This document shows positions 4,754-52,947 of a stretch of DNA of 64,000 nt, piece by piece. A model generated the notes under the pieces. The model was not told where the DNA came from, did not search any database, and was given only the letters and a program-made list of their open reading frames with translations. Made by a program: the position numbers and the translations under genes. Source of the stretch: a virus; the IMG/VR virus record IMGVR_UViG_3300046499_000502, positions 6,335-70,334 of that record. One strand, written 5' to 3'. The stretch's first letter is position 1; each line of letters opens with the position of its first letter.

Positions 4754-5081
4754 GGATTCGCCGCGACCTCCGGCGGAATACCTGACGCATCGGCAACTTC
4801 CCGTCGAATGAGGGAGAACCGCCCATGCGCGATCATGTCGACCCCGCCCAGTGCTCGGCGTGTTGTTCGGTCTGCGGCGCCTACGGTGGTGCGGAGCCCG
4901 GTCAGCCGATGGCGCCGCACCAGCCGCAAGGGAGCCGCGAGATGTGCCCGGGGAGCGGCCAGCCCGCGGTCTGACCGAGCTCTGACGCCTCCGCAGCCTC
5001 GCCCGTTTCGCACGGGCGGGGCTTTGGCGTGTGCGCCCTTGCGGCCGACGCACACCCGTCTGACCGTGGACCGTCAGCAGG

Positions 5082-5351
5082 GTGGCGTACCGACGACAGG
5101 GGGACGACGTGCGACGCAGGTTGGACGACGTGGCTGGCCGGCTGCTGCTGCGGTTGGCGGTGGTGCTGCACCGGACGGTGGCGGGTAGGGCGGCGCGGGA
5201 ACGGCTGCAGGCCCGCCGGAATCGGGCGTTGCGGGCGGCTTACCGCCGGGGCGTGCCGGTGGAGGAACTGGCAGCACGGATGCAGTTGACGCCTAGCTGG
5301 ATCCGGCAGGTGCTCAACGGGAAGAAGCCGGCGGTGGAGGAAGCCGCGTAG
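5082..5351 (+). CDS. Small HTH DNA-binding protein
   Basis: RNRALRAAYRRGVPVEELAARMQLTPSWIRQVL. Confidence 0.65.
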   Translation: MAYRRQGDDVRRRLDDVAGRLLLRLAVVLHRTVAGRAARERLQARRNRALRAAYRRGVPVEELAARMQLTPSWIRQVLNGKKPAVEEAA

Positions 5352-5364
5352 GCGGACAACAGAG

Positions 5365-5394
5365 CGCCCCCGTAGCCGTATGGCTGCGGGGGCG
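5365..5394. terminator. Bidirectional hairpin between convergent genes
   Basis: CGCCCCCGTAGCC-GTAT-GGCTGCGGGGGCG. Confidence 0.65.
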
Positions 5395-5407
5395 TCGTCG
5401 TGGCCGG

Positions 5408-6361
5408 CTACTCCTTGCCGTCGAGGACAGCGCGCCAGGCGCGGAGGTGTTCGGGCTGGACGGCGGTCTCGCCGGGCCCGTCGTAGCTGGCGCGCGCCCA
5501 GTACGCCTCGAACGCGTCGAGGGCTTGCCGGAGGGTGGCGGCCAGCTGGTCCCCACGTTCCTGCCAGACATACCGTTCGGCGGCCAGGTCCTGTCGCTGG
5601 GTGAGTAGGCGATGGCTTGCCTCCTGCTCGTCACGCCAGTGCTTCGCGTGCCGGTAGGCGGTGTCCTCCCACTCCCGGCGCTGAGCCTCTGCCTCTTTGA
5701 CCTGCTCGCGTAGCCGGTCGAGTTCGGGCTGTACGTCGGCGAGCTGGAGGCGCTGCCGGAGTTGGGCGAGGTGCCGGTCCCGGACGTTGAGAACCGTGTC
5801 GGCGATCTCCCGGGCGCGGGCGGCGGCTATGGGCTTGGGCAGGTTGTCCATGAGCAGCGGCTGGACGGCGGCGGCGTACTGCTGGTGGAGCCATTCCGGG
5901 TCGGTGATGGTGGCGGGCTCGGAGTGCTTCTGGGTGCGCGCTTTCTGCTGCCGGTCGTACTCGCGCCAGCGTTCCCCGTGCGAGACGGATGCCGCGCTGC
6001 CGTCATGACGTCGGCAGGGCTCGCCGGGCTGGGCGCCGCAGCCCGGCGGTCGGCAGCGCGCGGACCAGGACGGGTCGGTGATCGTGGCGGGCTCGGTCGC
6101 TTCAGTCGCTGCCGCCTTTCGGAGGTCCGAGAACGGCTTCGGCCACACGTTCGGGTCGGCCATGAATCGGTGCGCCCAGTCCTGTCGGTAGTCGCAGTCG
6201 GGCAGCCAGCAGTGCCAACCGTCCTCGTGAGCGACGAGGTGCAGGGCGCCCGTGGCGTGGTCGTTGCCGCAGGTGAACGGGTGCATGCCGCCCTCCGCCT
6301 GAAAGCGATTCAGGGCGGCCACCTGCTCGGGCGTCCACGGGGCGTGGATCTGGTCGGTCAT
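5408..6361 (-). CDS. Mosaic phage protein with two Cys/His modules and a coiled coil
   Basis: HPFTC...GWHC..C..QDWAH module; internal Zn-finger flanked by EPATITDP repeats. Confidence 0.8.
   Translation of the reverse strand: MTDQIHAPWTPEQVAALNRFQAEGGMHPFTCGNDHATGALHLVAHEDGWHCWLPDCDYRQDWAHRFMADPNVWPKPFSDLRKAAATEATEPATITDPSWSARCRPPGCGAQPGEPCRRHDGSAASVSHGERWREYDRQQKARTQKHSEPATITDPEWLHQQYAAAVQPLLMDNLPKPIAAARAREIADTVLNVRDRHLAQLRQRLQLADVQPELDRLREQVKEAEAQRREWEDTAYRHAKHWRDEQEASHRLLTQRQDLAAERYVWQERGDQLAATLRQALDAFEAYWARASYDGPGETAVQPEHLRAWRAVLDGKE
5897..6096. repeat. 26-bp direct repeat (1 mismatch) at 5897-5922 and 6071-6096
   Basis: CGGGTCGGTGAT(G/C)GTGGCGGGCTCGG, 174 bp apart, in frame. Confidence 0.85.
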
Positions 6362-8143: not shown

Positions 8144-8983
8144 TCATGCGGCGGGGTCGAGGTGCTGCTGGACGATGCGCTGATGCCAGCGGATCGCCCA
8201 GTCCGGGCAGTTGGCGCAGTTCTTGTGCGTGTGGCCGGGCATCGGGTCGGAGCGGCGGGCGTCCATCGACCAGGCCATCGAGTCAGCCGAGACGAGATCG
8301 TCCGCGTAGGCGCCGAGGCCTTGGGTCTTCACGCCGAAGCCGTGCAGGCGCAGACCTTGGCCCGCGAAGTGCTGCACGATCTCCCGGATTTCGTCGGTGG
8401 CCTGGCGGCGGCAGACGGATCCGAGGCCGACGACGGGCTGCGCGGCAAGGTCGACCCCGGCGTCGGCGTACATCTGGGCGCAATGCTGGTAGTCCTCGAG
8501 GCTCTGGCCCTGGAGGACCGGGATGAACGGGAGCTCTGGCGCGAGGCGCTTCAGCTCGAGGTAGTTGTCGACCGTGAACCGCTGGTGGATGCGCACGGCG
8601 GTCGTCAGGTCCTGCTCCGGGTCGAACGGGCCGAGCCCGCGGGCTTCACGGGTGCCGTGGAACGTCATGCCGTTGAGCACGCCGCCGCGGATGACGGCCT
8701 CTTCGCACATCCAGTCCTGCGGGGCGGCCCATTCGAGCTTGCCGATCGCCTCGGCGTACCTGCGGACCTCGGCGACGTAAGCCTCCGGCGTGAGGGTCCA
8801 CCGGCCGTGACGCTGCAGCTCGGTGAACCCACCGGAGTCCAGCGCCCACGGCGACTTGGCGCGGGGGAAGGTTTTGCGGTCCTTGAGACGATTACGGGAG
8901 ATGAACAGCGGTATGTCCGAGGTGGCCAGCCAGTTCGGCATGTGGGTGCCCAGGTAGAACCTGGTGCCCTCCTCGGCGGTCAC
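8144..8983 (-). CDS. Queuine tRNA-ribosyltransferase-like / DpdA-like guanine transglycosylase (DUF7221-like)
   Basis: WALDSGGF, PQDWMCE, PVLQG, VGLGSVC, LHGFG, SADSMAW and HKNCANC motifs of the TGT fold. Confidence 0.8.
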   Translation of the reverse strand: MTAEEGTRFYLGTHMPNWLATSDIPLFISRNRLKDRKTFPRAKSPWALDSGGFTELQRHGRWTLTPEAYVAEVRRYAEAIGKLEWAAPQDWMCEEAVIRGGVLNGMTFHGTREARGLGPFDPEQDLTTAVRIHQRFTVDNYLELKRLAPELPFIPVLQGQSLEDYQHCAQMYADAGVDLAAQPVVGLGSVCRRQATDEIREIVQHFAGQGLRLHGFGVKTQGLGAYADDLVSADSMAWSMDARRSDPMPGHTHKNCANCPDWAIRWHQRIVQQHLDPAA

Positions 8984-9498
8984 GCCGCCACCGCCTGACG
9001 GCGACGGCCGATGACCGCGATCACCGCGACCGCGGCCAGCGTCATCCACGCCTTGCCGAGCAGTTGGCCAGGCAGGAACTCCAGCGAGTGGAACGCCAGC
9101 CACAGGAAGATCAGGCTGTCGGCGGCCAGGCCCACCGCGTTCGAGGCGAGCATCGCCGTCAGCAGGCCCCGGCGGCGCAGCGGCTCGTACACGGCGAAGT
9201 CCATCGCCTCCGACACCGCGAACGCCGCAGCCGAAGCAGCAGCCAGAGCCGGATCGGCCAGCCACCACGACAGGGCAGCGCCCACAACGATCGCCGCCAG
9301 CACCGCGGCACGGCCCGCAGCCTCCCGGGCCAGATCGCGCAGGACCAGAGCGAGACCGACGGTGTACACACCAGCCGGGGCGAGGTAGCCGAAGCCGACC
9401 GGCTGAACGCCGAAGCGGGTCACGAGCCAATTCGCGGCGGGGATGGTGGCGATGTAGGCGGCCAGCAGGGTAGCGGCGGCGAATCGGCGAGTGGTCAT
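8980..9498 (-). CDS. VUT/YhhQ-family queuosine-precursor (preQ0/preQ1) transporter
   Basis: Multi-pass membrane protein: ANW...PAGVY..GLALVLRDL...AS..AF.VSE.MDFAVY...SN.VG...DS.IFL.LAF...GQ..GK. Confidence 0.85.
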   Translation of the reverse strand: MTTRRFAAATLLAAYIATIPAANWLVTRFGVQPVGFGYLAPAGVYTVGLALVLRDLAREAAGRAAVLAAIVVGAALSWWLADPALAAASAAAFAVSEAMDFAVYEPLRRRGLLTAMLASNAVGLAADSLIFLWLAFHSLEFLPGQLLGKAWMTLAAVAVIAVIGRRRQAVAA

Positions 9499-9599
9499 GC
9501 GGTTCCTCCGTGGGCATCTCGGGTGGTGGGGTGGGGTGCGCCGCCGGTTTCGGGCCGGTCGGCGACGTCGGGCGGGGAACAACGCGCGACGGGGGTTAG

Positions 9600-10079
9600 C
9601 TAGGCGGCTACGGCAGCGGGGCAGGGCTCGAGGTCGTAGTCGCCGCCAGGGAGGCGCCGGCAGCTGCACGAGGTCTCCTCGCGGATGTGGGAGCAGACCT
9701 CGACGGTCGGGTCGTCGTCGCCGGCCTCGGTGAAGTACTCGTCGCATTCGCGCTCGAGGCAGTCGATGCCGCCGACCCAGACCTGCACGGGCTGGTGTTC
9801 GGCATCCGGGCTAGGGGCGATGCCGCGGACAGAGCGGGCGTGGTCGCGGCCTTCGCAGCGGTCCCACGGCACCATGTCGCCGGACTCGGCGGAGCATGCC
9901 GGGCAGGCGATCCCGGCGGGTGCGGCAAGGCAGATGACGCCGTCGTCGTAGGGGCGGTGGTTGCACATCCACTCGTCCCACGCGTCGGTGTAGCGCTCCG
10001 GCTCGGGCTCGTGAGGGCAGTGCTCGCTGTCGGCGGACCAGTAGAACTGGGCGGGCTCGTGATCGTGCAGGGCGGTCAT
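9600..10079 (-). CDS. Cys/His-rich acidic hypothetical protein
   Basis: ATG at 10079 with AGGAG RBS; multiple Cys/His clusters. Confidence 0.7.
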   Translation of the reverse strand: MTALHDHEPAQFYWSADSEHCPHEPEPERYTDAWDEWMCNHRPYDDGVICLAAPAGIACPACSAESGDMVPWDRCEGRDHARSVRGIAPSPDAEHQPVQVWVGGIDCLERECDEYFTEAGDDDPTVEVCSHIREETSCSCRRLPGGDYDLEPCPAAVAA

Positions 10080-13481: not shown

Positions 13482-14216
13482 CTAGGCGGCGGGCAGTAGT
13501 CCGCCGCGGGCGATCGCCTTCAGGCGCTTGTCGGGGTCTGGTTCGCTGCGGGCGCCCCATTCGCCGGCTGTGATGAACTCGCGGCCGATGTACTTCGTGT
13601 AGGCGGGCGGGATGGCCTCGGTGAGTTCCTCGTGGACGTCGGTCCATGTGATGTCCATGGCGGCCTGCATCTCGGCGACGTTGCCCTTGCCGCCGCCTTT
13701 GCCGTAGGCGGCGATGTACGGTCCGTCGCGGTACACGCCGTGTCGCCAGCCGCGGACCGGACCCCGGTGCCGCTTGTGCTCGGGCTGCCGGGCTGGCGTG
13801 GCTCCGATCCATCCGAGTTCGAACTTGCGGTGCCGGATCACGCCGAGCCCGAACATTTCGCCGCACAGGTTGAGGTCGGCTCGCATGGGGGCGCCGGCCA
13901 CGTTCTCGATGACCCAGTCGACGCCGAACCACAGGCACAGTTCGCGCATCTCGGCGAGGAAGTCGGCGTACTCGCGGCCCCGGTTGGTGCCCTTGGTGAG
14001 GGCGGTGTGGGGCTGGCAGGGCGGGGAGGCGTGGACGAGGTGAAATTCCTGGCACCGTTCCCGCATGACGTCGAGTGCGTTGCCCTGGATGAACGTGAAC
14101 GGGTAGCGGGGGCGGTCCACGATGTCGACGCCGACGACGTCGAAACCAGCCCGCCAGTAGCCCATGCCTGCACCGCCGGCGCAGCAGAACAGGTCGAGGA
14201 CGCGGGGGCGCTTCAT
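13482..14216 (-). CDS. Compact C5-cytosine DNA methyltransferase-like protein
   Basis: LDLFCCAGG (motif I), SPPCQ (IV), IENV (VI), RHR (VIII), EAIPP (X). Confidence 0.85.
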   Translation of the reverse strand: MKRPRVLDLFCCAGGAGMGYWRAGFDVVGVDIVDRPRYPFTFIQGNALDVMRERCQEFHLVHASPPCQPHTALTKGTNRGREYADFLAEMRELCLWFGVDWVIENVAGAPMRADLNLCGEMFGLGVIRHRKFELGWIGATPARQPEHKRHRGPVRGWRHGVYRDGPYIAAYGKGGGKGNVAEMQAAMDITWTDVHEELTEAIPPAYTKYIGREFITAGEWGARSEPDPDKRLKAIARGGLLPAA

Positions 14217-26664: not shown

Positions 26665-26868
26665 ATGCAGCAAAGCGACGCGCTCATAGTCGACTACGGG
26701 CCAAGGTTCGATGGAACGGCGGTCCGCACCGATGACGGGATCGTTTGTGTCGTGCCGGTCCAGATCCAGGAGAGGCCGCAAGCCCGGGCCTCGATGCGGG
26801 AGTTGGTGAGGGACCTCGGTGGCGAATGTGGTCACTGCCCGCGCTGTCCTTTGGGGCAGGCGGGCTGA
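26665..26868 (+). CDS. Small Cys-motif protein (CGHCPRCP)
   Basis: AAGGGGGAG RBS; between repressor and integrase. Confidence 0.65.
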   Translation: MQQSDALIVDYGPRFDGTAVRTDDGIVCVVPVQIQERPQARASMRELVRDLGGECGHCPRCPLGQAG

Positions 26869-26945
26869 GATCATGGCGACGCGGAGGCGAGGCGGTAGTA
26901 GGGGTACACGCCGAGCCTCCGCGCCACCGGCAGCGAAGGGGCGAC

Positions 26946-28217
26946 ATGGCCAGACGCGCGCAGGACGTCTACACGGAGTGGCGGGGCGGCACCTGCCGCG
27001 TGAAGTGGTGGTCGGGCGAGTATCACGACGACGGCCGCAAGCGGTTCGAGTCCAAGGGCGGCTTCACCGACGAAGAATCGGCGTTCCAGCACGGCCAGGA
27101 CAAGATCTACGAGATCCGTCACGGCATGCATGTGAAGAACGCCGACGGCGCCACCCTCATGTCCGACTGGCTCGACAGCTGGCTCGCGGGCCTCGACCAC
27201 GCGCATCTGACGGAGCGGAACTACCGGTCCATCGTTGAGACCCACATCCGCCCCTACTTCAAGAAGCGCAACGCTGCCGTTGCCGACATCGACGTGATGG
27301 CCTTCCGAGCCTTCCGCAAGCACATCAACGGCGTACTGAAGCCGAACACGGCGAAGAAGGTCATGACGATCTTCGGGATGATTCTCGACGATGCTGTGCC
27401 GCGACTCATCAAGACCTCCCCGGTGGAGCGCACCAGGCGCCGGGGTCGGTATACGCGCAAGCCGAAGGAGCGCAAGCCCGACATGACGGCCGCGGCCGTG
27501 GAGCAGCTCGCGGTCAACGCCCGGACGCTGCTGGGCGATTCGGGCTACGTCTTCATCTGGACGATGGCCTGCACCGGGATGCGGCCGGCGGAGCTGTACG
27601 GGCTCACCCGCGAGTACTGCTACCCCAACTGGCCCGGCATGGACCTGCGATCGAACCCCGACGACCACGACCGCTACAACGACGACCTCGCGCGGTACGG
27701 CAAGGGCGACAACCTCATGCCCGCGATCCGTGTTGAGCGGCAGGTGCAGTACAAGGACGGCGGGCTCGCGTTCATGCCGCCGAAGTATGAGTCGTACAGG
27801 ACGCTGGTGATTCCGCCGTTCCTGGCGGAGATGCTGGAGCAACTGCTCTCCTCGCACGACAGGCCGTGGGTCTTCCCGGCGCTCGAGGGCGGGAGTCTGG
27901 GCGTGGTGAACTTCGACTACCGGTGGTGGCGTCCGATGGCTGACGGCGCCGAGAAGCGCGAGGCGAAGCAGGCCCGGTGGAATCGCCCGGCCATCCCCGC
28001 AGTGCCGTCGTTCGCGGGCCGGCGCCTGTATCTGGTCCGCCATGGCGCGAAGGCGTGGCTGGACGAGGACGGCCACAGCCGGTTCGCGGTGGAGTCGCGG
28101 ATGGGCCACGAGGTGCCGGGCGTCGAGGGCGTCTACTCGTCCGTGACAGTGCCGATGGAAGAGGGCATCATGAAGACGTTGCAGGAGCGTTGGGACGGGC
28201 TCCAGGAGCGGAAGTAG
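26946..28217 (+). CDS. int: Tyrosine integrase
   Basis: Arm-binding N-terminus (ESKGGF); catalytic TGMRPAEL, YLVRH, RMGH, EGVYS. Confidence 0.92.
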   Translation: MARRAQDVYTEWRGGTCRVKWWSGEYHDDGRKRFESKGGFTDEESAFQHGQDKIYEIRHGMHVKNADGATLMSDWLDSWLAGLDHAHLTERNYRSIVETHIRPYFKKRNAAVADIDVMAFRAFRKHINGVLKPNTAKKVMTIFGMILDDAVPRLIKTSPVERTRRRGRYTRKPKERKPDMTAAAVEQLAVNARTLLGDSGYVFIWTMACTGMRPAELYGLTREYCYPNWPGMDLRSNPDDHDRYNDDLARYGKGDNLMPAIRVERQVQYKDGGLAFMPPKYESYRTLVIPPFLAEMLEQLLSSHDRPWVFPALEGGSLGVVNFDYRWWRPMADGAEKREAKQARWNRPAIPAVPSFAGRRLYLVRHGAKAWLDEDGHSRFAVESRMGHEVPGVEGVYSSVTVPMEEGIMKTLQERWDGLQERK

Positions 28218-33396: not shown

Positions 33397-34413
33397 TCAG
33401 AGCCCGATGTCTTCGCTGGCGGCGTCGGTCCACTTGTCGGCTTCGCGGATGTAGCCCCAGAAGGCGGGGCTGTTCTCGGCGTGGCCGGACTGGGCGCGGA
33501 TCTTCTCCTCGCGCTTGCCTGCGATCCTCGAGGTCGTGATGAACCCGGCCCGCATGGAGTGGCCCGTCAGCCGGACGGCGATCCCGGCGCGCTCCGCGTT
33601 CCGGGCGATGATCTCGCGGCAGGCTTCGGGCGAGAGGCTCCTCGAGCCGACGTTGCCCCATACGTCGATGGGCAGGAAGGCGGGTCCGCTCGTGATGACG
33701 CTCGAGGACTTCCAGGTGGACCAGGCGCGGACGGGGCAGGTGTCGGGGTTCTTGCCGTAGGCGACGACGACGTCTCGAGCGGGGCGGCCTTTGACGGAGG
33801 GGACGTGTACCTCGAGGCCCATGCTCGAGAGGACGATGCCTTCGACGGTGAGCGCGGCGACTTCGGCGGATCGGCCTGCGATGCCGAAGGCCATGAGCCA
33901 TAGGGCGCGGTCGCGGAGGCCGGTCAGGCTCGAGGGTGCGGCGGCGCTCATCTTCCGCAGTTGCTCGGCGGTGGCTGCTGGGGCTTGCCCGCGTCCTCGA
34001 GCTTGGCGTTCGGGGTCGAGCTTGAGCGGCTTGAGGGCTTGGCGGGCGGCGACAGTGGCGGCCTTGGGGACTTCGACGCCTTGGCCTCGAGCGGTGACGG
34101 TGACGCCGGTGATGCGGCGGTCGATGCTGTTGGGTGCGGCGAGTTTGATGGTGTCGAGCCAGACGACGAATCCGACGAGCGTGCCCTTGGTTACGGCGGT
34201 CAGCGGCAGCGGCTGTCCGGTGCGTTCGGCGAGCCAGTCGTGGAACTCTTCCCAGAGTGCCCAGTCGTTGGCGTAGCCGCGCTTCGTGTTGTGGGGGCGG
34301 ATGGCGTCGAGGTGTTTCTCGGCTGCCTCTTCCATGGCGGCCAGAACAGCGAGCGTCGCAGCGTCGTAGGCGGCGGGGGTGGCGTCCGGCTGGCGCGGGG
34401 CGAGGTCGGTCAT
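33397..34413 (-). CDS. Second tyrosine recombinase (Cre-like, no arm-binding domain)
   Basis: NTKRGY..DW..W; RDRAL; GRSAEV; SVKG; TCPVRA; GHSMRAG; QSGH; GYIR. Confidence 0.88.
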   Translation of the reverse strand: MTDLAPRQPDATPAAYDAATLAVLAAMEEAAEKHLDAIRPHNTKRGYANDWALWEEFHDWLAERTGQPLPLTAVTKGTLVGFVVWLDTIKLAAPNSIDRRITGVTVTARGQGVEVPKAATVAARQALKPLKLDPERQARGRGQAPAATAEQLRKMSAAAPSSLTGLRDRALWLMAFGIAGRSAEVAALTVEGIVLSSMGLEVHVPSVKGRPARDVVVAYGKNPDTCPVRAWSTWKSSSVITSGPAFLPIDVWGNVGSRSLSPEACREIIARNAERAGIAVRLTGHSMRAGFITTSRIAGKREEKIRAQSGHAENSPAFWGYIREADKWTDAASEDIGL

Positions 34414-43296: not shown

Positions 43297-44760
43297 TCAC
43301 CCGAAGTCGTAGAGGGCGATCGCCAGCAGTGTGGAGAATGCGGCGGCGAGGTCGGCGAGGGTCGAGTAGTTGTCGGCGATGTCCTGGAGTGTGAATCCTG
43401 CGGCCTCCATGACGTCGGGCCAGTCGTCGGCTTTGACGACGTCGAGGGTGAACCAGCGGAATTCGTCGTACCAGGTGGGTGCCTCGTTGTCGGAGAGCAG
43501 GGCGTAGGTGCCGTCGAGGCGGCTCATTGACGTCTGCTTGCGGACGAGGATGACGCCTTCGGTGGCGTTGTCGAGGATCCCGTTGAGGGCGTCGCCGTCC
43601 TCATCGGTCTCGGTGCGCACGCTGATGGATGAGGACGGCGCGGACCGCGGGCGTCCCACGACGACAATCCGGCCGCCGACGTTGAACTGGGTAGCGTCGC
43701 GGTCCCTTTTTTTCTCCAGAGGCGATTCGATTTTCACGGCGGCGCCGACACCGCGGATGGCGTCCGAGACGACGTCGCTGGTCACCGTGGACGTAATCGG
43801 CCCGGAGTACGCGGTCCACTGCTGGCCGTAGACGTCGGTGAGGATGGCCGCATAGTTCAGCGAGATCCCGAACGGCTGCTCTGCGTCCACGCGCAGGAAC
43901 GAGGACTGCCCTGTGACGTCGATGCCGCTGGCCGCGCGCACAGGGATGAGGTCGGTGCCGACCTGCCGGTAGAGGGTGATGGTGGTGATGTCGTCGGCGG
44001 TCAGGCCGGTCGCCGCTACGAGGTTGCGGGGCGGGAACACGGACTGCGGGGTGGCGTTGACGTCGCTGGACGCCTCCCGGACGCGCAACACGCTGGCAAC
44101 CCCTGTCGTGGCGGTTGAGAGGGTCGCTGTGATGGTAGGCGCCATCGTGGCCGGGCCTGCGGTTACTGACGCGCTGGCCGCTCCGGTGCGCGCTCCGTTG
44201 CCCGTCGCCGCCGCGGCGGAGAACCGGCCGACCGCCGTATCGAAGGTGACACCTGCCGCGGAGATGCCCACCGTCGGAAACCCGTCGGTCGACACCGGCA
44301 GGCCATACCCCCACCATGCAAAGTCGCCGGGAGCCCAAGTCAGGGCGGTAGTGCAAGGTGCCGAGAACGCGGTGCCGGAGGTGGTGTCCTCGGCTGCCGC
44401 AAAGGCCCACCGCCAGCCGGTGCCCGCCGAGCGGGACAGTAGGGCGATCGTGCCTGCGATGACGGAGCCCGTGCCCCCGGAGGGGATGGAGGTGGTGGGC
44501 CCGGCGTCCCCGCCGATCATCTCGCGCACAAATATGGTGATCCTGCGCGGCCCCGTCCCGACCCCGAGTGTTCCGCCGCCCCCGGAGAACGATCCGGCGA
44601 GCGTCCAGCCCGACGGCGTGGACGGGATGCTGAGGTTGGGGTGCGAGGAGATAACCTGCAGAATTCCGAGCTGGCCGGCCGATGGGGTCGCGGAGTAGGA
44701 CGGCGTGACGGTGTTCGCGTCGACCGCCGTTCCACCCTGACTGAGGTACGAGATCGTCAC
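43297..44760 (-). CDS. Distal-tail-like protein with N-terminal accessory domain
   Basis: Directly after TMP; D.EQPFG and C-terminal TLQDIA..YSTLADL repeats. Confidence 0.75.
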   Translation of the reverse strand: MTISYLSQGGTAVDANTVTPSYSATPSAGQLGILQVISSHPNLSIPSTPSGWTLAGSFSGGGGTLGVGTGPRRITIFVREMIGGDAGPTTSIPSGGTGSVIAGTIALLSRSAGTGWRWAFAAAEDTTSGTAFSAPCTTALTWAPGDFAWWGYGLPVSTDGFPTVGISAAGVTFDTAVGRFSAAAATGNGARTGAASASVTAGPATMAPTITATLSTATTGVASVLRVREASSDVNATPQSVFPPRNLVAATGLTADDITTITLYRQVGTDLIPVRAASGIDVTGQSSFLRVDAEQPFGISLNYAAILTDVYGQQWTAYSGPITSTVTSDVVSDAIRGVGAAVKIESPLEKKRDRDATQFNVGGRIVVVGRPRSAPSSSISVRTETDEDGDALNGILDNATEGVILVRKQTSMSRLDGTYALLSDNEAPTWYDEFRWFTLDVVKADDWPDVMEAAGFTLQDIADNYSTLADLAAAFSTLLAIALYDFG

Positions 44761-47700
44761 CGCCGCCCCACCTTCGCCCGGTACGCCTGCCAGCCCTCGG
44801 ACGCCTTGATCTTCGGTTTGACCTGGACGTCGATGAGGTCGCGCAGCCGGTCGTCGTTGAAGTGGACGTGAACGTCAGTGCCATCACGGTTTTCCAGTGC
44901 GAGGGCAACCCGCTCCCACAGCGCGTTGTCGCGGGAGTTCGCGGAGGTCGCCGCGGTCGGGACGTAGCGGCGGCGCACGGAGACGCCAGACGCCGTGTCG
45001 GCGAGGCGTTGGGCTGCTCCTCCGGCGAGGTGGCTGTGCAGGTCCATGCCGTGGACCATGCCGAGGACGACCTGCTTGCCGACCTCGTCACGGAACACCC
45101 CGGACGGGCTCTTGATCTTCAGAGCCTTCTTGATGGCCTTCACGAGATCGGTGGCGAGCTTGTCGATCTGCTTCGTGAGAGCCTTCTCCTGCGACTTCAG
45201 GCCTGCGAGGAATCCCTCGCCAGCATGCTTGCCACTGTCGTACATCATGTCGGCCATGTCCTGGCCGAAGGATGTCGCCAGCTTCCCGCCGGACGCCACC
45301 AGGCCGTTCAGCTTGGTGATGTCCTGGGTGGTGACGTTCTTGTCGCCGAGAATGTTCGCGAGCTGACTGCCCGGTCCGGCGTCCGACAGTTGCTGAAGCA
45401 GTGCCTTGCTGGCACCGCGCGCCTTCAGCGACTTCGTCAGCGACACGAAGTTGCTCGCGGTCTTCTGCTGGCCGCTCATCTGCGAAATGAGGCCGCCAAT
45501 GTCGGTGGCCGATGTTCCGGAGATGGACAGGAAGTCGCTGATGTTCGACGCCTGATCCGATGCGTACTGCATGGCCGCGGCGATGGTCTTCTCAATCGAG
45601 GCCCGCTTGTCGACGAGCTTCTCCAGCTTGTCGCCCGACTTCATGACCGTCTTGGACAGCTTGTCGAATCCGGCGTTCAGGAGCTTCGCGTTGAGGCTCT
45701 TGAGCGCCGAGGCGATTGCCGACGAGGTGCCCGCCGTCAGCGTCTTCAGCAGGCCGTTCTTGATGGTCGTGGCGATCGACGTCTTCGCGCTGCGCCTCGC
45801 GTTCTTCAGTGATATCTCCGCAGCCTGCAGCTCCTTCTCGGCAGCCTTCAGTCGCTTCTCCGCCGCCTGTACGCCTTTGTGTCGCCGCTTGGCGCGAGCG
45901 AGATCGCCCTTGGCGTCCCCCACTTTCCGCTTGTCGCGCCGCACCCGGTCCGCGGCGTTGGTGATGGTGCCGGACGCGTACCCGGGCAGTTTGATCCCGT
46001 TGGCCTTGGCGAACGCCATCGACTGCGGGTTGGACATCACGTCCTCGCCGCCCTTGAAGTTGACCAGCTCCGGGCCCTTTTCGCCGACCCAGGCCAGGCC
46101 CTTCGCGGCGCCGCCCGTGCCCTTGGCGTACCAGTGCGGCGAGCGGGCGAGCCACTGGCTGTAGGCGTTCAGCGGGCTGCCGTAGCGTTCGGCAATGTAC
46201 GACAGACCCCACTTGATCTGCGTGGAGGCGTTCGTCTTCCAGTCCGAGCCCGCCGAGCCCATCTTGCTCGCCGGCAGCGACTGCGGGATGCCATACGCGC
46301 CGCTGCTCTTGTTCAGTGCGCGCTCGTTCCAGCCCGACTCGCCGTTCCACAGGTTCTTCAGGGCAGCCCACTGTGGGCCGGACCAGCCGCGGGCAGCCGC
46401 GAGCGCCTCACCGATCTTCTGGTTGGCCGACGACCCTCCGCCGCTTCCACCCAGACCGAGCAGGCCGAGCAGGTCACCCCCGAGGCCCCCAAGCGCCTTG
46501 AGGGCCTTGCCGGGTAGCTTGGTGATGCTGACCAGGCCCTTCTTGACGATCGACCCGAGCGCCTTCGGAAGGGAGCCGAAGACCTTCTTCGCGATGGCCG
46601 TGCCCGACGTCTTGGCCATGCCCTTCATGAGGCCGGTAACCAGGTGACCGCCGATACCCATGAACACGCGGCTGGGTGACCGGATGCCGAAGAAGTGCTT
46701 CACCGCGTTGACGACGGGATCGACGATGGTCTTCTTGATCCAGGAGCCGATTCCCTTCATCGTCCCGACGATCCCGGTCTTAAAGCCGGAGATCAGCGAG
46801 CCGCCCTTGCTCACGAGCCAGCCGCCCGCCTTCGAGAACCGGCTCAGGACCGGGCTGGCGATATGGGAGTACGCCCACGACCCGATCGCCTTGGCGCCGA
46901 CGCTGACGCCCGACTTGAAGCCGCCGACGAGAGCACTACCCTTGCCGATCAGCCACCTTCCCGATCGAGCCATCCAGTTGGCAATGGGCGCCAGGATGTG
47001 GTCGAACACCCAGCCGCCGATCGCTTTCGCGCCGGTACTGACGCCGCTCCTGAAGCCGGAGACGAGAGCGCTACCCTTGGACAGCAGCCACGACCCGGCA
47101 CGCTTGAAGGCTCCGACGACCGGGTCGATAACCCACTTCTTGCCGAAGCCCCCAATGGCCCGGCCGCCCCGGGCCACGCCGCTACCGAAGCCCCGTGCGA
47201 GGTCGGCGCCCTTGCCGAGTAGCCAGCTGCCAGCCTTGACGAAAGGCTTCACGACGAGGCCGACGATCTCGCCGACTTTCGCGATGACCCAGCCGGCTCC
47301 ATCACGGATGCCGTTGCCCAGGAAGTGGATGGCGGCCTTGCCTTTGTCCAGCAGTTTGAGGCCCCACACGCCGATACGCGTGGTGAGCAGCCCGGTCTCG
47401 CGCTCGATGATTTTTGCGCCCTCAGGGAAGACCCGGGCGAGCCCCTTCCACAGGCTCGTGCCGAAGAACTTTACGACCTTGCTGAAGGCGCGCGAGATCG
47501 GCCCGGTCAGACGATCGATGCCGCGGAGCATCGGTGCGAAAATCTTGAGGATCGGGATCCTCGAAATGATCCTTTCAAGCGGTCCGGCGATCTTCCCGAC
47601 ACCCACGAAGGACAGCGCGGCGACGACCGTGTCCCACCAGTGCTTCTTCCAAAAATCGGCACTGAACAAGTCCGCGCCGAAGCTGCTGACGAAACCGATC

Positions 47701-49400
47701 GCGAAGCCGAGAGCGTTGCCGCCGACCTCCTTGCCGATGTTCACCCAGTCGAGACCACCGAGGGCGCTCGCGAGCTGCTTGGTGAGCTTCCCGGCGTTCT
47801 TGGCTAGCCACTGGAAACTCTTGCCGAGAGCGTCTCCGAGCTGCGCGCCCATCTTCGAGAAGTCCGCGTTGCCGATGCCGATGGAGACGGCCTTGCGGAT
47901 CGTCTCGCCGATCTTCTGGGCAGCGCTCTTGGGAGGCGCCGCCTTCGGCGATACGAGCGAGGCCACCAGACCCGACCCGCCATGCGGCAAGGGCGCCAGC
48001 GCAGGCCCCCGCACACCGGTGGTGGGTGCGACCTGGCCGACGCCGTAGTGCGGCATCGGCGCCAGAGCAGGGCCCTTCACCTTCGCGGCTGCACTGCCGG
48101 AGCCCAGATGCGGAGACGTGTCGAACAGGCCGCTGACCAGATCCGATGCAGCGCTCTTCGTGCCGGAGAAGCCCTTCAGGAAGTCGGACACGAGGCCCTT
48201 GGCGGTCGAGATGCTGGTCTTGATGGCGTCGACCGGTATCAGGTTGCCCATGGTCCGCCCGAACCGCGCCGCGGCTGGCATGGCGTCCGAGGCGAGGAAC
48301 TTCACGAACGCGGTGACGGGCGGCAACACCTTCGTGCCAACCCGGATGCCCATCACCTCGAGGTTCGAGACGAGCAGGTGCCATTGGGCCTCGGCCGTCT
48401 TGCGCTGCATTTTGACCGCGTCGTCGAACCGGCCGGTGCTGCGGTTGATCTGCTCCTGCTTCTTCTCGAGCACGTCGAGGTTGTTGAGCATCAGCAGGAT
48501 GCCGCTCGAGGAACGGCCGCCACCAAACGCCCTGCTGAGCAGCTGGGACTGCTTCGAGGCGGACAGCCCCGACTTGTCGAGGTGCTCCTTCAGAAGTCCG
48601 ATGGCGCCGATCAGTCCCTTTGGACCACGCATCGCGTCGGCGAGGTTCAGCCCGGTGAGTCCGATCTTCTTCAGCTGCTTCTCCGCCGCACCAGACGGGG
48701 CGCCCAGCAGCGAGAAGCTCATCCGCAGCCGGGTCGCGGCTGACGCGGAGTCGATGCCCTCGTCCGTCATCAGCGCGAGCGCGGCGCCGACCTGCTTCAT
48801 CGACAGGCCGAAGGTCTTCGCCGACGGCAGGATGCCGGTGCCGATCGCCGCGTTGAACTGATCCATCGACATGTTGCCCGCGCCGATGATCGCGTTCACC
48901 GTAGAGACGGCCTCGTGGAACGAGGTGGCGCCCTTGATGCCGGTCCGCCACGCGCCCGCCAGGGCGTTCGTGGTCTCTTCGAGGTTCGCGTGGCCGACCG
49001 CCGCGAGGTCCGACGCCTCCTTGAGGGCCTTCATCGCAGACACGTTGTCCATACCGACGCTCTTCAGGTGGTACAGCGACTCGGCGAGATGCTGCGGACC
49101 CTGCTGGGTGGACGTCCCCAGCTTCAACACTGCATCGGAGAGAACCTTGACGTCCTTCGCAGTGCCGCCGGCCTGCGTCGAGATCCGAGTCATCTCGGAC
49201 TGGAACTCGGCCGCCTTCTTCGCCGACTCGCCCAGTCCCACCGCGAGCCCGGCAGCCATGGCGGCGCCCGCCTTGACGGCGGTCTGGCCGAGCTTCGCGA
49301 GCGTGCGCTCCGTGCTACTCGCGGACCGGCCCACCGTGTTGAACGTGCGGGACGCCGAGTCGTGGGCGATGAGCCGGTAGATGATGCTGGAGCTGGCCAT
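44757..49400 (-). CDS. Tape measure protein with lytic transglycosylase (SLT-like) domain
   Basis: TP901-type TMP N-region; about 40-aa W-repeats; I.SPS motifs; ESGWN..A.N.SSGAYGIPQ.LP..YG; VGEKGPEL. Confidence 0.93.
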   Translation of the reverse strand: MASSSIIYRLIAHDSASRTFNTVGRSASSTERTLAKLGQTAVKAGAAMAAGLAVGLGESAKKAAEFQSEMTRISTQAGGTAKDVKVLSDAVLKLGTSTQQGPQHLAESLYHLKSVGMDNVSAMKALKEASDLAAVGHANLEETTNALAGAWRTGIKGATSFHEAVSTVNAIIGAGNMSMDQFNAAIGTGILPSAKTFGLSMKQVGAALALMTDEGIDSASAATRLRMSFSLLGAPSGAAEKQLKKIGLTGLNLADAMRGPKGLIGAIGLLKEHLDKSGLSASKQSQLLSRAFGGGRSSSGILLMLNNLDVLEKKQEQINRSTGRFDDAVKMQRKTAEAQWHLLVSNLEVMGIRVGTKVLPPVTAFVKFLASDAMPAAARFGRTMGNLIPVDAIKTSISTAKGLVSDFLKGFSGTKSAASDLVSGLFDTSPHLGSGSAAAKVKGPALAPMPHYGVGQVAPTTGVRGPALAPLPHGGSGLVASLVSPKAAPPKSAAQKIGETIRKAVSIGIGNADFSKMGAQLGDALGKSFQWLAKNAGKLTKQLASALGGLDWVNIGKEVGGNALGFAIGFVSSFGADLFSADFWKKHWWDTVVAALSFVGVGKIAGPLERIISRIPILKIFAPMLRGIDRLTGPISRAFSKVVKFFGTSLWKGLARVFPEGAKIIERETGLLTTRIGVWGLKLLDKGKAAIHFLGNGIRDGAGWVIAKVGEIVGLVVKPFVKAGSWLLGKGADLARGFGSGVARGGRAIGGFGKKWVIDPVVGAFKRAGSWLLSKGSALVSGFRSGVSTGAKAIGGWVFDHILAPIANWMARSGRWLIGKGSALVGGFKSGVSVGAKAIGSWAYSHIASPVLSRFSKAGGWLVSKGGSLISGFKTGIVGTMKGIGSWIKKTIVDPVVNAVKHFFGIRSPSRVFMGIGGHLVTGLMKGMAKTSGTAIAKKVFGSLPKALGSIVKKGLVSITKLPGKALKALGGLGGDLLGLLGLGGSGGGSSANQKIGEALAAARGWSGPQWAALKNLWNGESGWNERALNKSSGAYGIPQSLPASKMGSAGSDWKTNASTQIKWGLSYIAERYGSPLNAYSQWLARSPHWYAKGTGGAAKGLAWVGEKGPELVNFKGGEDVMSNPQSMAFAKANGIKLPGYASGTITNAADRVRRDKRKVGDAKGDLARAKRRHKGVQAAEKRLKAAEKELQAAEISLKNARRSAKTSIATTIKNGLLKTLTAGTSSAIASALKSLNAKLLNAGFDKLSKTVMKSGDKLEKLVDKRASIEKTIAAAMQYASDQASNISDFLSISGTSATDIGGLISQMSGQQKTASNFVSLTKSLKARGASKALLQQLSDAGPGSQLANILGDKNVTTQDITKLNGLVASGGKLATSFGQDMADMMYDSGKHAGEGFLAGLKSQEKALTKQIDKLATDLVKAIKKALKIKSPSGVFRDEVGKQVVLGMVHGMDLHSHLAGGAAQRLADTASGVSVRRRYVPTAATSANSRDNALWERVALALENRDGTDVHVHFNDDRLRDLIDVQVKPKIKASEGWQAYRAKVGRR

Positions 49401-51682: not shown

Positions 51683-52144
51683 CTAGCGGCCGCTGTACGC
51701 GTCGCAGGACACCTCGAACACGACGACTGCCTGCGCGCCCTTGGTCGTCTGGTCCATGGTCAGACTGTGCGACGAGATCATCGCTCGCATCACGCTGCCG
51801 CCGAGCTGTCGGTTCGCCGCGATAGCCTCCCCGGCCTCGCGGAGCAGCTCATAGGCGCGCCGCCGGGCGACGGCAACACCGTCCCCGCCGATCAGGACCG
51901 CCGTTGCGCAGCGGATGGTGAACTGCTCACGGTCGATCGAGCCCCCCATGCCCTCTGTCAGCAGGGTGGACTCGGCGTCCGTGCCATCGTCGCCGCCGGT
52001 GTAACCGACCGACACGATCTCCTGCACGGTCGCCTGAGACGTCGACGGCCCGTCCCGCACCGTCACGCCGGCCAGTCCGGGCCACGCAGTGAACGCGGCA
52101 ACGAGAGCATCCATCGCGGCCGGAAGCCGGGACGTCCACACCAT
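51683..52144 (-). CDS. Tail terminator-like protein
   Basis: V.DGP...VGY...E...I.C...RAYEL......LGG.V. Confidence 0.7.
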   Translation of the reverse strand: MVWTSRLPAAMDALVAAFTAWPGLAGVTVRDGPSTSQATVQEIVSVGYTGGDDGTDAESTLLTEGMGGSIDREQFTIRCATAVLIGGDGVAVARRRAYELLREAGEAIAANRQLGGSVMRAMISSHSLTMDQTTKGAQAVVVFEVSCDAYSGR

Positions 52145-52947
52145 CAGGCCACCCCCGGCAGTTGCGGATCGAGGAGCTCCAGGGCCCGCCGCGGGATCGC
52201 GAATCCGCGCCCTGCGACGTAGGGCTCGCTGTCGCCGCCGAGCTGCACGCCCATCGTGCCGCGCTGCGTCTCCCACAGATGCTGAACGATGATCAGCCCA
52301 GCAAGCCGGTAGTCGTCCGGAATGACGGCCTCACCCGCCTGGTACGTGAAATCCACGTCGCCCGCAAGCGACTCGCCAGACGTGACCGTCAGAAGGCCCG
52401 TCTCGCCGTCGACCCGCAGGTTCGCCGTGTTCCAGGTTGTCGACCCGTCCGCCGCAACCACCGAGGTCAGGGACAGCACCGGCACCTGCCGGAGAAGCAC
52501 CTCTCTGGCCCGGCCGACTTGCTGACGCTCGACGACGGTACGCCGCACCACAACCCGCCCTAGCGCCCGCTCCACCGCGCCCGTCGCCGCCCCGACGAAG
52601 CCGCGCAGCTCGTCGTCGTCGGCGGTCTCCGACGGCCCCATGTTCAGCTGAGCGCGCGCATCCGCCAACGACACGATGCCGACTGGGATCGCGGGCTGCA
52701 CGTCGAAAACATCCGCATACGCCGTGGTCGGCCCGCTGGTGACGAGCCGCCACACGTGCCGACCCGCCTGAGCGGTCACGTAGTCGACGCGCACCTGCCC
52801 CGTCGTCGTCGGCGTCGGCACCGCGGGGCTGACCGTAGTCCCGTCCGGCAGGATGATCGTGAGGTCCGCCGAGCCCGGATTGACGGGCGCGCCGGACGCG
52901 TCGACGACGTCCACGGCCACCTGATAGACGCTGCCCAGGTCAAGCAT
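52144..52947 (-). CDS. Head-tail adaptor (HK97 gp6-like) with N-terminal Ig-like extension
   Basis: IVSLADARAQLN...DDDEL..F..AAT..VE; Y.AG...P...L.IVQHLWETQRG. Confidence 0.85.
   Translation of the reverse strand: MLDLGSVYQVAVDVVDASGAPVNPGSADLTIILPDGTTVSPAVPTPTTTGQVRVDYVTAQAGRHVWRLVTSGPTTAYADVFDVQPAIPVGIVSLADARAQLNMGPSETADDDELRGFVGAATGAVERALGRVVVRRTVVERQQVGRAREVLLRQVPVLSLTSVVAADGSTTWNTANLRVDGETGLLTVTSGESLAGDVDFTYQAGEAVIPDDYRLAGLIIVQHLWETQRGTMGVQLGGDSEPYVAGRGFAIPRRALELLDPQLPGVA

What the first reader, a model, noticed from the sequence alone, without database searches (positions are those of the whole stretch)
8144..9498. Two-gene 7-deazaguanine salvage-and-insert module (VUT transporter + TGT/DpdA-like enzyme)
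Seen: a YhhQ/VUT-type membrane protein translationally coupled (GTGA) to a TGT-fold protein with DSGGF, PVLQG, HGFG, DS.AW and Cys motifs. No folE/queD/queE/queC is visible in the window. Established: YhhQ imports preQ0/preQ1, and phage DpdA enzymes swap guanine for 7-deazaguanines in DNA to evade restriction. Inference: a temperate phage imports a precursor and modifies its DNA (or tRNA) with no synthesis genes, making anti-restriction dependent on environmental preQ. This divergent TGT family has, to my knowledge, no established substrate.
Basis: partly seen in the sequence, partly recalled or inferred. Interest (0 to 1): 0.75.

Follow-up and report, generated by a model that had tools for sequence, protein, structure and literature searches.

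The report
Phage deazaguanine importer plus DNA insertase
A soil phage carries two overlapping genes, a small membrane transporter and a DNA base-swapping enzyme, that most likely let it take up a ready-made modified guanine and put it into its own DNA; the idea is already in print but has never been tested.

Summary
On the minus strand, a 172-aa VUT/YhhQ-family membrane protein (9498..8980) overlaps by GTGA a 279-aa protein (8983..8144). That protein is a clear member of Pfam DpdA PF23859 (E 5e-87). Its model is a TGT-type barrel, and the best structural match is the solved DNA preQ0 insertase DpdA. The whole 70-kb phage record has no QueC, QueD, FolE, radical-SAM or QueF gene. The pairing is not chance. 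Of 73 viral loci encoding a relative of this transporter, 72 have a TGT-like gene beside it. The same transporter family sits in phage CAjan's preQ0 cluster and next to queC in bacteria. The likely hosts (Streptomyces) almost never have TGT (1 of 151) and rarely have QueC (18 of 151) or any VUT gene (6 of 151). Best reading (about 0.55): it imports a preQ0-type base and inserts it into phage DNA. Two cautions apply. The closest tested relative, mycobacteriophage Orion gp20 (48% identical), gave no deazaguanine in DNA. Most relatives of this DpdA clade have neither a transporter nor a synthesis gene nearby. The salvage idea was published in 2016 and 2019, so this is a new member of a known kind.

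The parts
8980..9498 (-). VUT/YhhQ-family membrane protein, 172 aa (P0002), of the short phage subfamily phrog_4899; putative importer of a 7-deazaguanine base
   Evidence: Pfam Vut_1 38.6 bits against a cut-off of 27.2. TIGR00697 'queuosine precursor transporter' 39.1 bits, below its cut-off of 50.95. phrog_4899 E 4.4e-37. 36% identity, E 9e-21, to CAjan gp41 'putative preQ0 transporter'. About five hydrophobic segments. dN/dS 0.19-0.32 against four orthologues.
8144..8983 (-). DpdA-family guanine transglycosylase, 279 aa (P0001, GTG start), of the 'singleton' clade PF23859 / phrog_1279
   Evidence: Pfam DpdA E 5.4e-87. phrog_1279 E 2.9e-86. AlphaFold model with pLDDT 85.9 and pTM 0.85. Best Foldseek match 7ui4 'DNA preQ0 insertase DpdA' at E 4.9e-8, followed by archaeosine and bacterial TGTs. 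D49, D90 and D234 are invariant in 23 of 23 aligned relatives. 48% identity to Orion gp20. dN/dS 0.12-0.42.
8980..8983 (-). GTGA overlap: the DpdA start codon GTG overlaps the VUT stop codon TGA (translational coupling)
   Evidence: Read directly from the sequence. In related loci most pairs overlap by 4 nt, in either gene order.
9504..9509 (-). Shine-Dalgarno-like GGAGGA, 5 nt upstream of the VUT ATG
   Evidence: Read directly from the sequence; inference only.

Best explanation
This is a two-gene, salvage-only DNA hypermodification cassette of a siphovirus with an integrase, recovered from rhizosphere metagenomes and probably infecting Streptomyces or close relatives. The pair lies in the early/replication gene block. 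The VUT protein is made first and its translation is coupled to that of DpdA. VUT inserts in the host membrane and imports a free 7-deazaguanine base, most likely preQ0, possibly preQ1 or another derivative. DpdA, a TGT-fold base-exchange enzyme, then removes guanine from double-stranded phage DNA after replication and puts the imported base in its place. The protein families, the fold, the conserved aspartates, the gene linkage and the absence of synthesis genes are shown here. The cargo, the direction of transport, DNA as the target and any anti-restriction benefit are inferred.
For: (1) Families and fold: Pfam DpdA E 5.4e-87 and Vut_1 above its cut-off. The model is a TIM barrel whose best match is the solved DNA preQ0 insertase DpdA 7ui4, E 4.9e-8.

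(2) Catalytic residues: D49 (with F53 four residues later), D90 and D234 are invariant in 23 of 23 relatives. Their order and spacing match D95/F99, D130 and D256 of Salmonella DpdA, the acid/base, base-recognition and nucleophile residues (PMC10164549, passages read). This mapping comes from motifs, not from a superposition.

(3) Linkage: 72 of 73 viral loci encoding a relative of the VUT have a TGT-like gene on the same strand, mostly overlapping by 4 nt. The one miss has the VUT at a contig edge. After clustering the VUTs at 90% identity, 49 of 50 clusters keep the partner.

(4) Partner enzymes: the partners fall into three TGT-like families. These are PF23859/phrog_1279 (10 viral loci), phrog_887 (49 loci), which is the family of CAjan and Rosebush DpdA whose phages carry dPreQ0, and phrog_15826 (13 loci). 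VUTs at least 70% identical to each other occur with all three families, so the transporter is the constant part.

(5) Independent ties to preQ0: CAjan gp41, inside that phage's preQ0 cluster, is in the same phrog_4899. In bacterial genomes, 13 of the 30 VUT loci without a DpdA-like neighbour have queC directly upstream. Four of these have queC-queE-queD, and one is next to DpdD.

(6) No internal source: the 70-kb record has no QueC, QueD, FolE, radical-SAM or QueF.

(7) Hosts: the closest relatives are in Streptomyces genomes. In 151 genomes sampled from that genus, TGT was found in 1, QueC in 18 and Vut_1 in 6. In 4 of 5 host genomes carrying such a prophage, the prophage VUT is the only Vut_1 gene.

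(8) Both genes are under purifying selection.

(9) Phages with DpdA only (7-11, MED16) do carry low levels of dADG when the host makes preQ0.
Against: (1) The closest tested relative, Orion gp20 (48% identity), gave fewer than 6 deazaguanine modifications per million nucleotides (PMC6884629). The authors attribute this to a lack of precursor, but no member of PF23859 has ever been shown to insert anything.

(2) Pfam PF23859 does not recognise the two validated phage DpdAs, Rosebush gp2 and CAjan gp35. P0001 has no significant pairwise similarity to them (E 0.002 over 52 aa and E 0.39).

(3) Most relatives of this DpdA lack any visible precursor source. Of the best 80 (out of 353) viral loci, 49 have neither a VUT nor queC within 5 kb. 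Of 20 Streptomyces genomes with a PF23859 gene, 15 have neither QueC nor a Vut_1 gene. None of the 399 Mycobacterium phage records matched by P0001 is among the 8 phage records that match the VUT. So the clade may do something that needs no 7-deazaguanine.

(4) No phage VUT has a demonstrated function: the CAjan yhhQ deletion left modification unchanged.

(5) P0002 scores below both NCBIfam equivalog cut-offs, so its specificity is not established.

(6) The canonical Zn motif of bacterial DpdA is not conserved in the clade, and there is no DpdB-like ParB_N gene.

(7) Whether free preQ0 is available to a soil host is unknown.
Confidence: 0.55

Rival explanations
1. Same architecture, different chemistry. 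The PF23859 clade inserts a base other than the known 7-deazaguanines, and the short VUT imports that base. Alternatively the enzyme removes or exchanges a base for another purpose.
For: Orion DNA lacked all five deazaguanine nucleosides that were measured. Most clade members have no visible preQ0 source. P0002 is below the queuosine-precursor-transporter equivalog cut-offs. P0001 is far from the validated DpdA1 enzymes.
Against: The same VUT family sits in CAjan's preQ0 cluster and beside queC/queE/queD and DpdD in bacteria. It also partners phrog_887 enzymes, the family of the CAjan and Rosebush DpdA whose phages carry dPreQ0. From my own recall, not from a call, all characterised VUT members carry queuosine precursors or queuine. 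The base-recognition aspartate D90 is invariant.
Confidence: 0.2
2. Lysogenic-conversion function. The pair is expressed from the prophage and marks or services the lysogen's DNA, or simply scavenges the base for the host, rather than protecting virion DNA.
For: The phage has an integrase. Related pairs sit in prophages of Streptomyces genomes. Bacterial dpd clusters with an embedded yhhQ mark host DNA (PMC5699537).
Against: The pair lies in the same-strand block as the DnaB-like helicase, resolvase-like nuclease, methyltransferase and exonuclease genes. It is not next to the integrase or repressor region. No Dpd restriction partner was found: PADLOC gave no hit for either protein and there is no ParB_N. 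The hosts lack TGT, so they have no use for the base in tRNA.
Confidence: 0.1
3. The enzyme modifies tRNA (host or phage) with the imported base, as TGT does.
For: The fold is shared with tRNA-guanine transglycosylases. GenBank annotates the mycobacteriophage homologues as 'queuine tRNA-ribosyltransferase'.
Against: The best structural match is the DNA insertase, not a tRNA enzyme. Pfam TGT PF01702 gives no hit to P0001. The protein is a bare 279-aa barrel. The only tRNA in the window is tRNA-Gly(TCC), which is not a GUN-anticodon tRNA. Later queuosine steps are unlikely in hosts where TGT was found in 1 of 151 genomes.
Confidence: 0.07
4. A hitch-hiking or decaying cassette with no present function in this phage.
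For: Six near-identical metagenomic loci carry a frameshifted partner gene. The CAjan yhhQ is dispensable.
Against: Both reading frames are intact and the catalytic residues are kept. dN/dS is 0.12-0.42. The 4-nt coupling is preserved across lineages.
Confidence: 0.03

Closest known systems
Mycobacteriophage Orion gp20 and the 'singleton DpdA' clade (Pfam PF23859, phrog_1279)
   Same: Same Pfam family and same PHROG. 48% identity over the whole protein, E 8e-85. No preQ0 synthesis genes in the phage.
   Different: Orion and the other Mycobacterium phage records have no VUT gene (neighbourhoods). Orion DNA was unmodified on a host without a preQ0 pathway. Here a transporter is coupled to the enzyme.
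Escherichia phage CAjan 7-deazaguanine cluster (DpdA1, FolE, QueD, QueE, QueC, gp41 'putative preQ0 transporter')
   Same: The transporter is the same short VUT family: phrog_4899, 36% identity, E 9e-21. The system inserts dPreQ0 into phage DNA after replication.
   Different: CAjan makes its own preQ0, and its transporter is dispensable. Its DpdA is phrog_887, with no significant similarity to P0001. This phage has only the transporter and a different DpdA clade.
Bacterial Dpd system: Salmonella Montevideo DpdA/DpdB (PDB 7UI4) and dpd clusters with an embedded yhhQ
   Same: Best structural match. The same three aspartates, judged by motif. The published suggestion that a yhhQ inside dpd clusters means salvaged preQ0 goes into DNA. 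A VUT of this clade lies beside queC-queE-queD and DpdD in Kineococcus.
   Different: No sequence-level match to any solved structure. No DpdB-like gene and no restriction genes. The protein is 279 aa against 413, without the large insertion and without the CXCX2CX22H zinc site.
E. coli YhhQ (preQ0/preQ1 transporter; NCBIfam NF008406, TIGR00697)
   Same: Same Pfam family Vut_1; multi-pass membrane protein.
   Different: About 50 residues shorter. Only residues 83-158 align to the Pfam model. Scores are below both equivalog cut-offs (22 against 252, and 39 against 51). No transport data exist.
DpdA-only phages Salmonella 7-11 and Pantoea MED16
   Same: DpdA without synthesis genes, and DNA carrying dADG from an external source of preQ0.
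   Different: Their hosts are gamma-proteobacteria that make preQ0. No transporter gene is reported ('transporter' and 'YhhQ' do not occur in the main text of PMC8306585). They belong to a different DpdA cluster.

Membership tests
Pfam DpdA PF23859 / phrog_1279 ('singleton' phage DpdA) | Profile score above the curated cut-off over most of the protein | tested here: met
   291.9 bits against a cut-off of 27, E 5.4e-87. phrog_1279 E 2.9e-86.
Pfam DpdA PF23859 / phrog_1279 ('singleton' phage DpdA) | TGT-type (beta/alpha)8 barrel | tested here: met
   Model pLDDT 85.9, pTM 0.85. Foldseek top matches are 7ui4 DpdA at 4.9e-8, then 1iq8 arcTGT at 1.3e-6, then bacterial TGTs.
TGT/DpdA superfamily | Three invariant active-site aspartates: general acid/base, base recognition and nucleophile | tested here: met
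   D49, D90 and D234 are invariant in 23 of 23 sequences. Their equivalence to D95, D130 and D256 of bacterial DpdA rests on motif order and spacing, not on a structural superposition.
Bacterial DpdA (Dpd restriction-modification system) | Structural zinc site CXCX2CX22H | tested here: not met
   P0001 has H-x-H-x2-C-x2-C, and about half of the clade has only one of the two Cys (KNEANC). The C-terminal part of the model has pLDDT 54-62.
Bacterial DpdA (Dpd restriction-modification system) | DpdB ATPase partner and Dpd restriction genes in the cluster | tested here: not met
   No ParB_N match in the 70-kb record. No PADLOC hit for P0001 or P0002.
Phage DpdA1 (9g, CAjan, Rosebush; phrog_887 / phrog_7068) | Sequence similarity to validated members | tested here: not met
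   BLASTP E 0.39 to CAjan gp35 and E 0.002 over 52 aa to Rosebush gp2. PF23859 does not match either phage.
Canonical tRNA-guanine transglycosylase (Pfam TGT PF01702) | Profile match | tested here: not met
   With E allowed up to 1, only PF23859 was returned for P0001.
Any DpdA | Guanine / 7-deazaguanine exchange on DNA, and a modified nucleoside in virion DNA | not testable with these tools
   Needs LC-MS/MS or an enzyme assay. The only tested clade member, in Orion, was negative.
VUT family (Pfam Vut_1 PF02592) | Profile score above the curated cut-off; multi-pass membrane protein | tested here: met
   38.6 bits against 27.2, but only residues 83-158 align. Hydrophobic segments at about 8-26, 34-53, 59-88, 112-139 and 144-165.
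Queuosine precursor transporter YhhQ (NCBIfam equivalogs TIGR00697, NF008406) | Score above the equivalog cut-off | tested here: not met
   39.1 against 50.95, and 22.2 against 252.
Queuosine precursor transporter YhhQ | Genomic association with 7-deazaguanine genes | tested here: met
   72 of 73 viral loci have a TGT-like neighbour. 13 bacterial loci have queC upstream. The CAjan cluster member is in the same PHROG.
Queuosine precursor transporter YhhQ | Uptake of preQ0 or preQ1 | not testable with these tools
The CAjan deletion had no phenotype.

The most novel reading that the evidence does not exclude
The short VUT plus a TGT-like enzyme is a self-contained, mobile, salvage-only DNA hypermodification cassette. 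It recurs in at least 49 distinct phage lineages, in phages of actinobacteria, alpha-proteobacteria and cyanobacteria. Related VUTs are combined with three different transglycosylase families. In hosts such as Streptomyces, which have no TGT, usually no QueC and no VUT of their own, phage DNA modification would then be conditional on 7-deazaguanines released by neighbouring microbes. If so, the base inserted by the never-validated PF23859 clade could even be one not yet seen in DNA. A supplied transporter plus added precursor would also explain why Orion-type 'singleton' DpdAs looked inactive.
Probability: 0.3. Interest if true: 0.65.

Novelty: new member of a known kind. Interest (0 to 1): 0.4.

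Why it matters
Phage 7-deazaguanine DNA modification is an established anti-restriction strategy. The largest group of DpdA phages, those with no synthesis genes, has no demonstrated precursor source, and its actinophage clade has no demonstrated activity. This locus and its relatives give a concrete, testable answer for part of that group: a dedicated importer that is almost never found in phages without a transglycosylase beside it. It also points to a simple experiment, transporter plus added preQ0, that could show what the roughly 400 mycobacteriophage 'queuine tRNA-ribosyltransferase' genes do. If confirmed, phage resistance to restriction in soil would depend on metabolites made by other organisms.

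Tried and rejected
(1) Gene fusion as Rosetta-stone evidence. My ORF script suggested a 398-aa DpdA-like/VUT fusion in L065-L069 and L076. Translation showed an internal stop and a frameshifted C-terminus of the partner gene, so this is not a fusion and I rejected it. A search for longer VUT proteins gave P0003, which is VUT plus the start of DpdA and then out-of-frame sequence, probably an artefact. It also gave P0004, one sequence from a 2-kb contig with VUT and the phrog_15826-type domain in one frame. That is too thin to use.

(2) Sequence-profile links between the partner families. hhalign of the PF23859-type alignment against the Pam5-type and Aoka-type alignments gave probabilities of 2.6% and 6.7%. 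Only the Pam5-type against the Aoka-type reached 73%. Neither short type has a Pfam hit. The link of the Pam5 type to DpdA rests on phrog_887 and on fold. VIA-align gave Cap10 Z 15.6, arcTGT 15.2, TGT 13.6 and DpdA 13.2, with unrelated TIM barrels at 13-14. Foldseek had no match at E <= 0.001.

(3) phmmer of P0001 against PDB sequences found no relevant match.

(4) Conservation of flanking genes: the downstream 206-aa ORF and the upstream nuclease-like ORF are not found beside the pair in other loci, so the unit is two genes.

(5) Tailoring genes: no QueF. Ten further early-region ORFs gave nothing relevant in Pfam.

(6) Expression: no RNA holder was listed for the stretch, and I laid no reads.

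(8) I did not run complex prediction, because I do not claim that the two proteins bind.

(9) Supplementary tables of PMC6884629 and PMC10516641, which list phage YhhQ and DpdA hits, could not be read. They may already contain phages with this two-gene arrangement.
Full report
**What is there.** The window is bases 6335-70334 of a 70,334-base IMG/VR virus record. The record is linear and CheckV rates it 100% complete. The stretch is held almost completely (shares 0.94 and 0.92 of sampled words) in contigs of two runs labelled rhizosphere metagenome. The window encodes a terminase large subunit, portal, major head protein, head-tail adaptor, tape measure, tail protein and endolysin. It also encodes a tyrosine-integrase-like protein on the opposite strand at 26745-28217. 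An early block on the minus strand carries an exonuclease, a DNA methyltransferase, a DnaB-like helicase and a resolvase-like nuclease. The finding lies at the downstream end of that early block.

On the minus strand, a 172-aa ORF (9498..8980) is preceded by GGAGGA and a 5-nt spacer. It ends in a TGA that overlaps the GTG start of a 279-aa ORF (8983..8144), giving GTGA at 8983-8980.

**The enzyme.** P0001 matches Pfam DpdA PF23859 at E 5.4e-87 and phrog_1279 at 2.9e-86. It has no NCBIfam hit and no Pfam TGT hit. phmmer finds no relative among solved structures. An AlphaFold model built on 23 relatives (pLDDT 85.9, pTM 0.85) is a TIM barrel. Its best Foldseek match is 7ui4, the DNA preQ0 insertase DpdA (E 4.9e-8), followed by archaeosine and bacterial TGTs.

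In the 23-sequence alignment D49, F53, D90, Q158-G159, G186/G188, H214-G217 and D234 are invariant. Their order and spacing match D95/F99, D130, H181-G182, G206-G207 and D256 of Salmonella DpdA, where D95 and D256 are essential (PMC10164549, passages read). This mapping is by motif, not by superposition. The bacterial zinc motif is not kept across the clade. The record has no DpdB-like ParB_N gene.

**Which DpdA.** tblastn finds relatives in 407 phage records, 399 of them Mycobacterium phages, all below 60% identity and mostly annotated 'queuine tRNA-ribosyltransferase'. PF23859 matches Orion gp20 (E 1.9e-142) but not Rosebush or CAjan. P0001 is 48% identical to Orion gp20. It has no significant similarity to CAjan DpdA (E 0.39) and only a 52-residue match to Rosebush gp2 (E 0.002).

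This is therefore the 'singleton DpdA' clade of Hutinet et al. 2019 (PMC6884629, passages read). In that paper Orion DNA had fewer than 6 of each measured deazaguanine nucleoside per million nucleotides. Rosebush and CAjan, which make preQ0, had about 28% and 32% of G replaced. The authors expected the Orion result, because neither the phage nor M. smegmatis makes preQ0. They also left open whether this subset had diverged functionally.

**The transporter.** P0002 matches Pfam Vut_1 (38.6 bits, cut-off 27.2), but only over residues 83-158. It scores below the cut-offs of both NCBIfam queuosine-precursor-transporter equivalogs. It matches phrog_4899 over its full length and has about five hydrophobic segments. 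It is 36% identical (E 9e-21) to CAjan gp41, the 'putative preQ0 transporter' inside that phage's preQ0 cluster, which is in the same PHROG. Deletion of the CAjan yhhQ did not change modification (PMC7544227, passages read). No phage member has a demonstrated activity.

**Is the pairing meaningful?** A scan of IMG/VR with P0002 gave 73 loci. I ran tblastn with four partner proteins: P0001, phiLM21 p025, Aoka gp40 and Pam5 gp30. It found a partner on the same strand next to the VUT in 72 of the 73 loci. The exception (L055) has the VUT at the contig edge.
- By partner type there are 8 P0001-type, 2 phiLM21-type, 49 Pam5-type and 13 Aoka-type loci.
- Two of the Aoka-type hits (L079, L080) are weak.
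- Six Pam5-type loci (L065-L069, L076) carry a frameshifted partner gene.
- Most pairs overlap by 4 nt, in either gene order. All 20 P0001-type pairs, viral and bacterial, have the VUT first.
- Clustering the VUTs at 90% identity leaves 50 clusters, 49 of them with a partner. One cluster at 70% identity or more contains all of the last three partner types.

The P0001 and phiLM21 types are Pfam DpdA. The other two types have no Pfam hit and no significant profile link to PF23859. The Pam5 type nevertheless falls in phrog_887 (E 2.8e-39), together with CAjan and Rosebush DpdA. Its model (pLDDT 87.6) is a TIM barrel whose best matches are Cap10 and archaeosine TGT, though other barrels score close behind. 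Flanking genes are not conserved, so the unit is the pair. Both genes are under purifying selection (dN/dS 0.12-0.42 and 0.19-0.32).

**Independent link to preQ0.** In bacterial genomes the same scan gave 51 loci, and 21 of them have a DpdA-like neighbour. Of the other 30, 13 have a queC-like gene directly upstream on the same strand. Four actinobacterial loci have queC-queE-queD followed by the VUT (seed proteins confirmed by Pfam). In Kineococcus the next gene is DpdD (E 1.2e-156). The remaining 17 loci have neither. This matches the 2016 statement that yhhQ embedded in dpd clusters suggests that salvaged preQ0 is inserted in DNA (PMC5699537, passages read).

**Source of the base.** The whole record lacks QueC, QueD, FolE, radical-SAM and QueF genes. 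The closest relatives of both proteins are in Streptomyces genomes, up to 88% identity for DpdA and 86% for the VUT. In five such genomes, true QueC is present in 2 and TGT in 0. The prophage VUT is the only Vut_1 gene in 4 of them.

I then sampled 151 genomes from the genus of one of them. That genome's record title says Streptomyces.
- TGT was found in 1.
- QueC at E <= 1e-20 was found in 18.
- Vut_1 was found in 6.
- PF23859 above its cut-off was found in 20.

A phage in this host therefore usually finds no preQ0 and no importer, which gives the transporter a clear rationale. It also makes tRNA an unlikely target. The only tRNA gene in the window is tRNA-Gly(TCC).

**What argues against.** The reverse linkage is weak. 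Among the best 80 (out of 353) viral loci with a P0001-type DpdA, 29 have a VUT within 5 kb, 2 have queC and 49 have neither. Of the 20 Streptomyces genomes with PF23859, only four have an adjacent VUT (G003, G027, G045, G083) and only two have QueC (G035, G083). That leaves 15 with no visible source. None of the Mycobacterium phage records has the VUT. Either these enzymes are idle without a precursor, or they use another route, or the clade does something else. I cannot tell these apart.

**Comparison and novelty.** The arrangement works like the CAjan and bacterial dpd systems with synthesis replaced by import. It is a member of Pfam DpdA and Pfam Vut_1. It is not a member of DpdA1, of bacterial DpdA/DpdB, or of the YhhQ equivalogs. 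The hypothesis is already in print. Hutinet et al. 2016 raised salvage for Orion and for dpd clusters containing yhhQ. Hutinet et al. [quoted passage not shown]

My literature searches found no paper that describes the two-gene cassette as a unit or tests it. The term sets were DpdA+YhhQ+phage; DpdA+7-deazaguanine+transporter+phage; phage+preQ0+salvage+DpdA; 'VUT family'+phage; mycobacteriophage+7-deazaguanine; and Streptomyces+phage+deazaguanine+transglycosylase. What this analysis adds is the near-obligate presence of a TGT-like partner beside this VUT subfamily, the swapping of partner families, and the host context.

**Verdict.** The most likely mechanism is import of a preQ0-type base and its insertion into phage DNA (0.55). 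This is a new member of a known kind, of moderate interest mainly as a clean experimental handle on the unexplained 'singleton DpdA' clade.

Noticed in passing
L085, L089, L091, L097 (VUT at about 5001-5500 of each locus): Kitasatospora, Streptacidiphilus and Kineococcus chromosomes carry queC-queE-queD followed by a VUT of this clade. In Kineococcus the next gene is DpdD (E 1.2e-156). These look like bacterial dpd or preQ0 clusters. Here a transporter sits beside the synthesis genes, so the direction of transport is unclear.
   Followed up: partly
Genus sample G003-G152: 15 of 20 Streptomyces genomes with a PF23859 DpdA gene have neither QueC nor any Vut_1 gene. This is the same puzzle as the mycobacteriophage 'singleton' DpdAs: it is unexplained what these enzymes use.
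   Followed up: partly
P0004 (419 aa, one sequence from a 2-kb metagenome contig): A single ORF joins an N-terminal VUT to a C-terminal phrog_15826-type (Aoka gp40-like) domain. It could be a true fusion or a lost stop codon at a 4-nt overlap.
   Followed up: no
P0005 (603 aa, 12 member sequences) and P0006 (414 aa): Proteins that appear by eye to hold two VUT-like membrane domains in tandem; P0005 also has an extra N-terminal domain. Only Vut_1 is annotated.
   Followed up: no
L065-L069 and L076, partner gene upstream of the VUT: Six near-identical metagenomic loci have the Pam5-type transglycosylase-like gene frameshifted before its C-terminal D-S motif, while the VUT stays intact.
   Followed up: yes
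Model m81c4b2bb7cea (Pam5-type partner, from L016:1089-1766): The best structural neighbour is Cap10, the TGT-like protein of a CBASS system in a complex with CdnD carrying an 'NDG modification' (9ntn, Z 15.6). It ranks just ahead of archaeosine TGT.
   Followed up: no
window 13482-14216 (-): A DNA methyltransferase (phrog_363, E 8.9e-39) lies in the same early block, so the phage may carry a second, independent DNA modification.
   Followed up: no
window 9600-10073 (-): A cysteine- and histidine-rich 157-aa ORF sits directly upstream of the VUT gene. It has no Pfam hit and was not examined in related loci.
   Followed up: partly
window 52074-52159 (-): ARAGORN calls an 86-nt tRNA-Gly(TCC) inside the head-tail gene block. 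It is the only tRNA in the window.
   Followed up: no
window 44757-49400 (-), residues about 990-1130 of the product: The 1547-aa tape measure protein contains a transglycosylase-like (cell-wall lytic) domain (phrog_12661, E 8e-31).
   Followed up: no
window 33397-34413 (-): A second, weak integrase-like match (phrog_216, E 2.3e-10, C-terminal 70 residues only), in addition to the integrase at 26745-28217.
   Followed up: no
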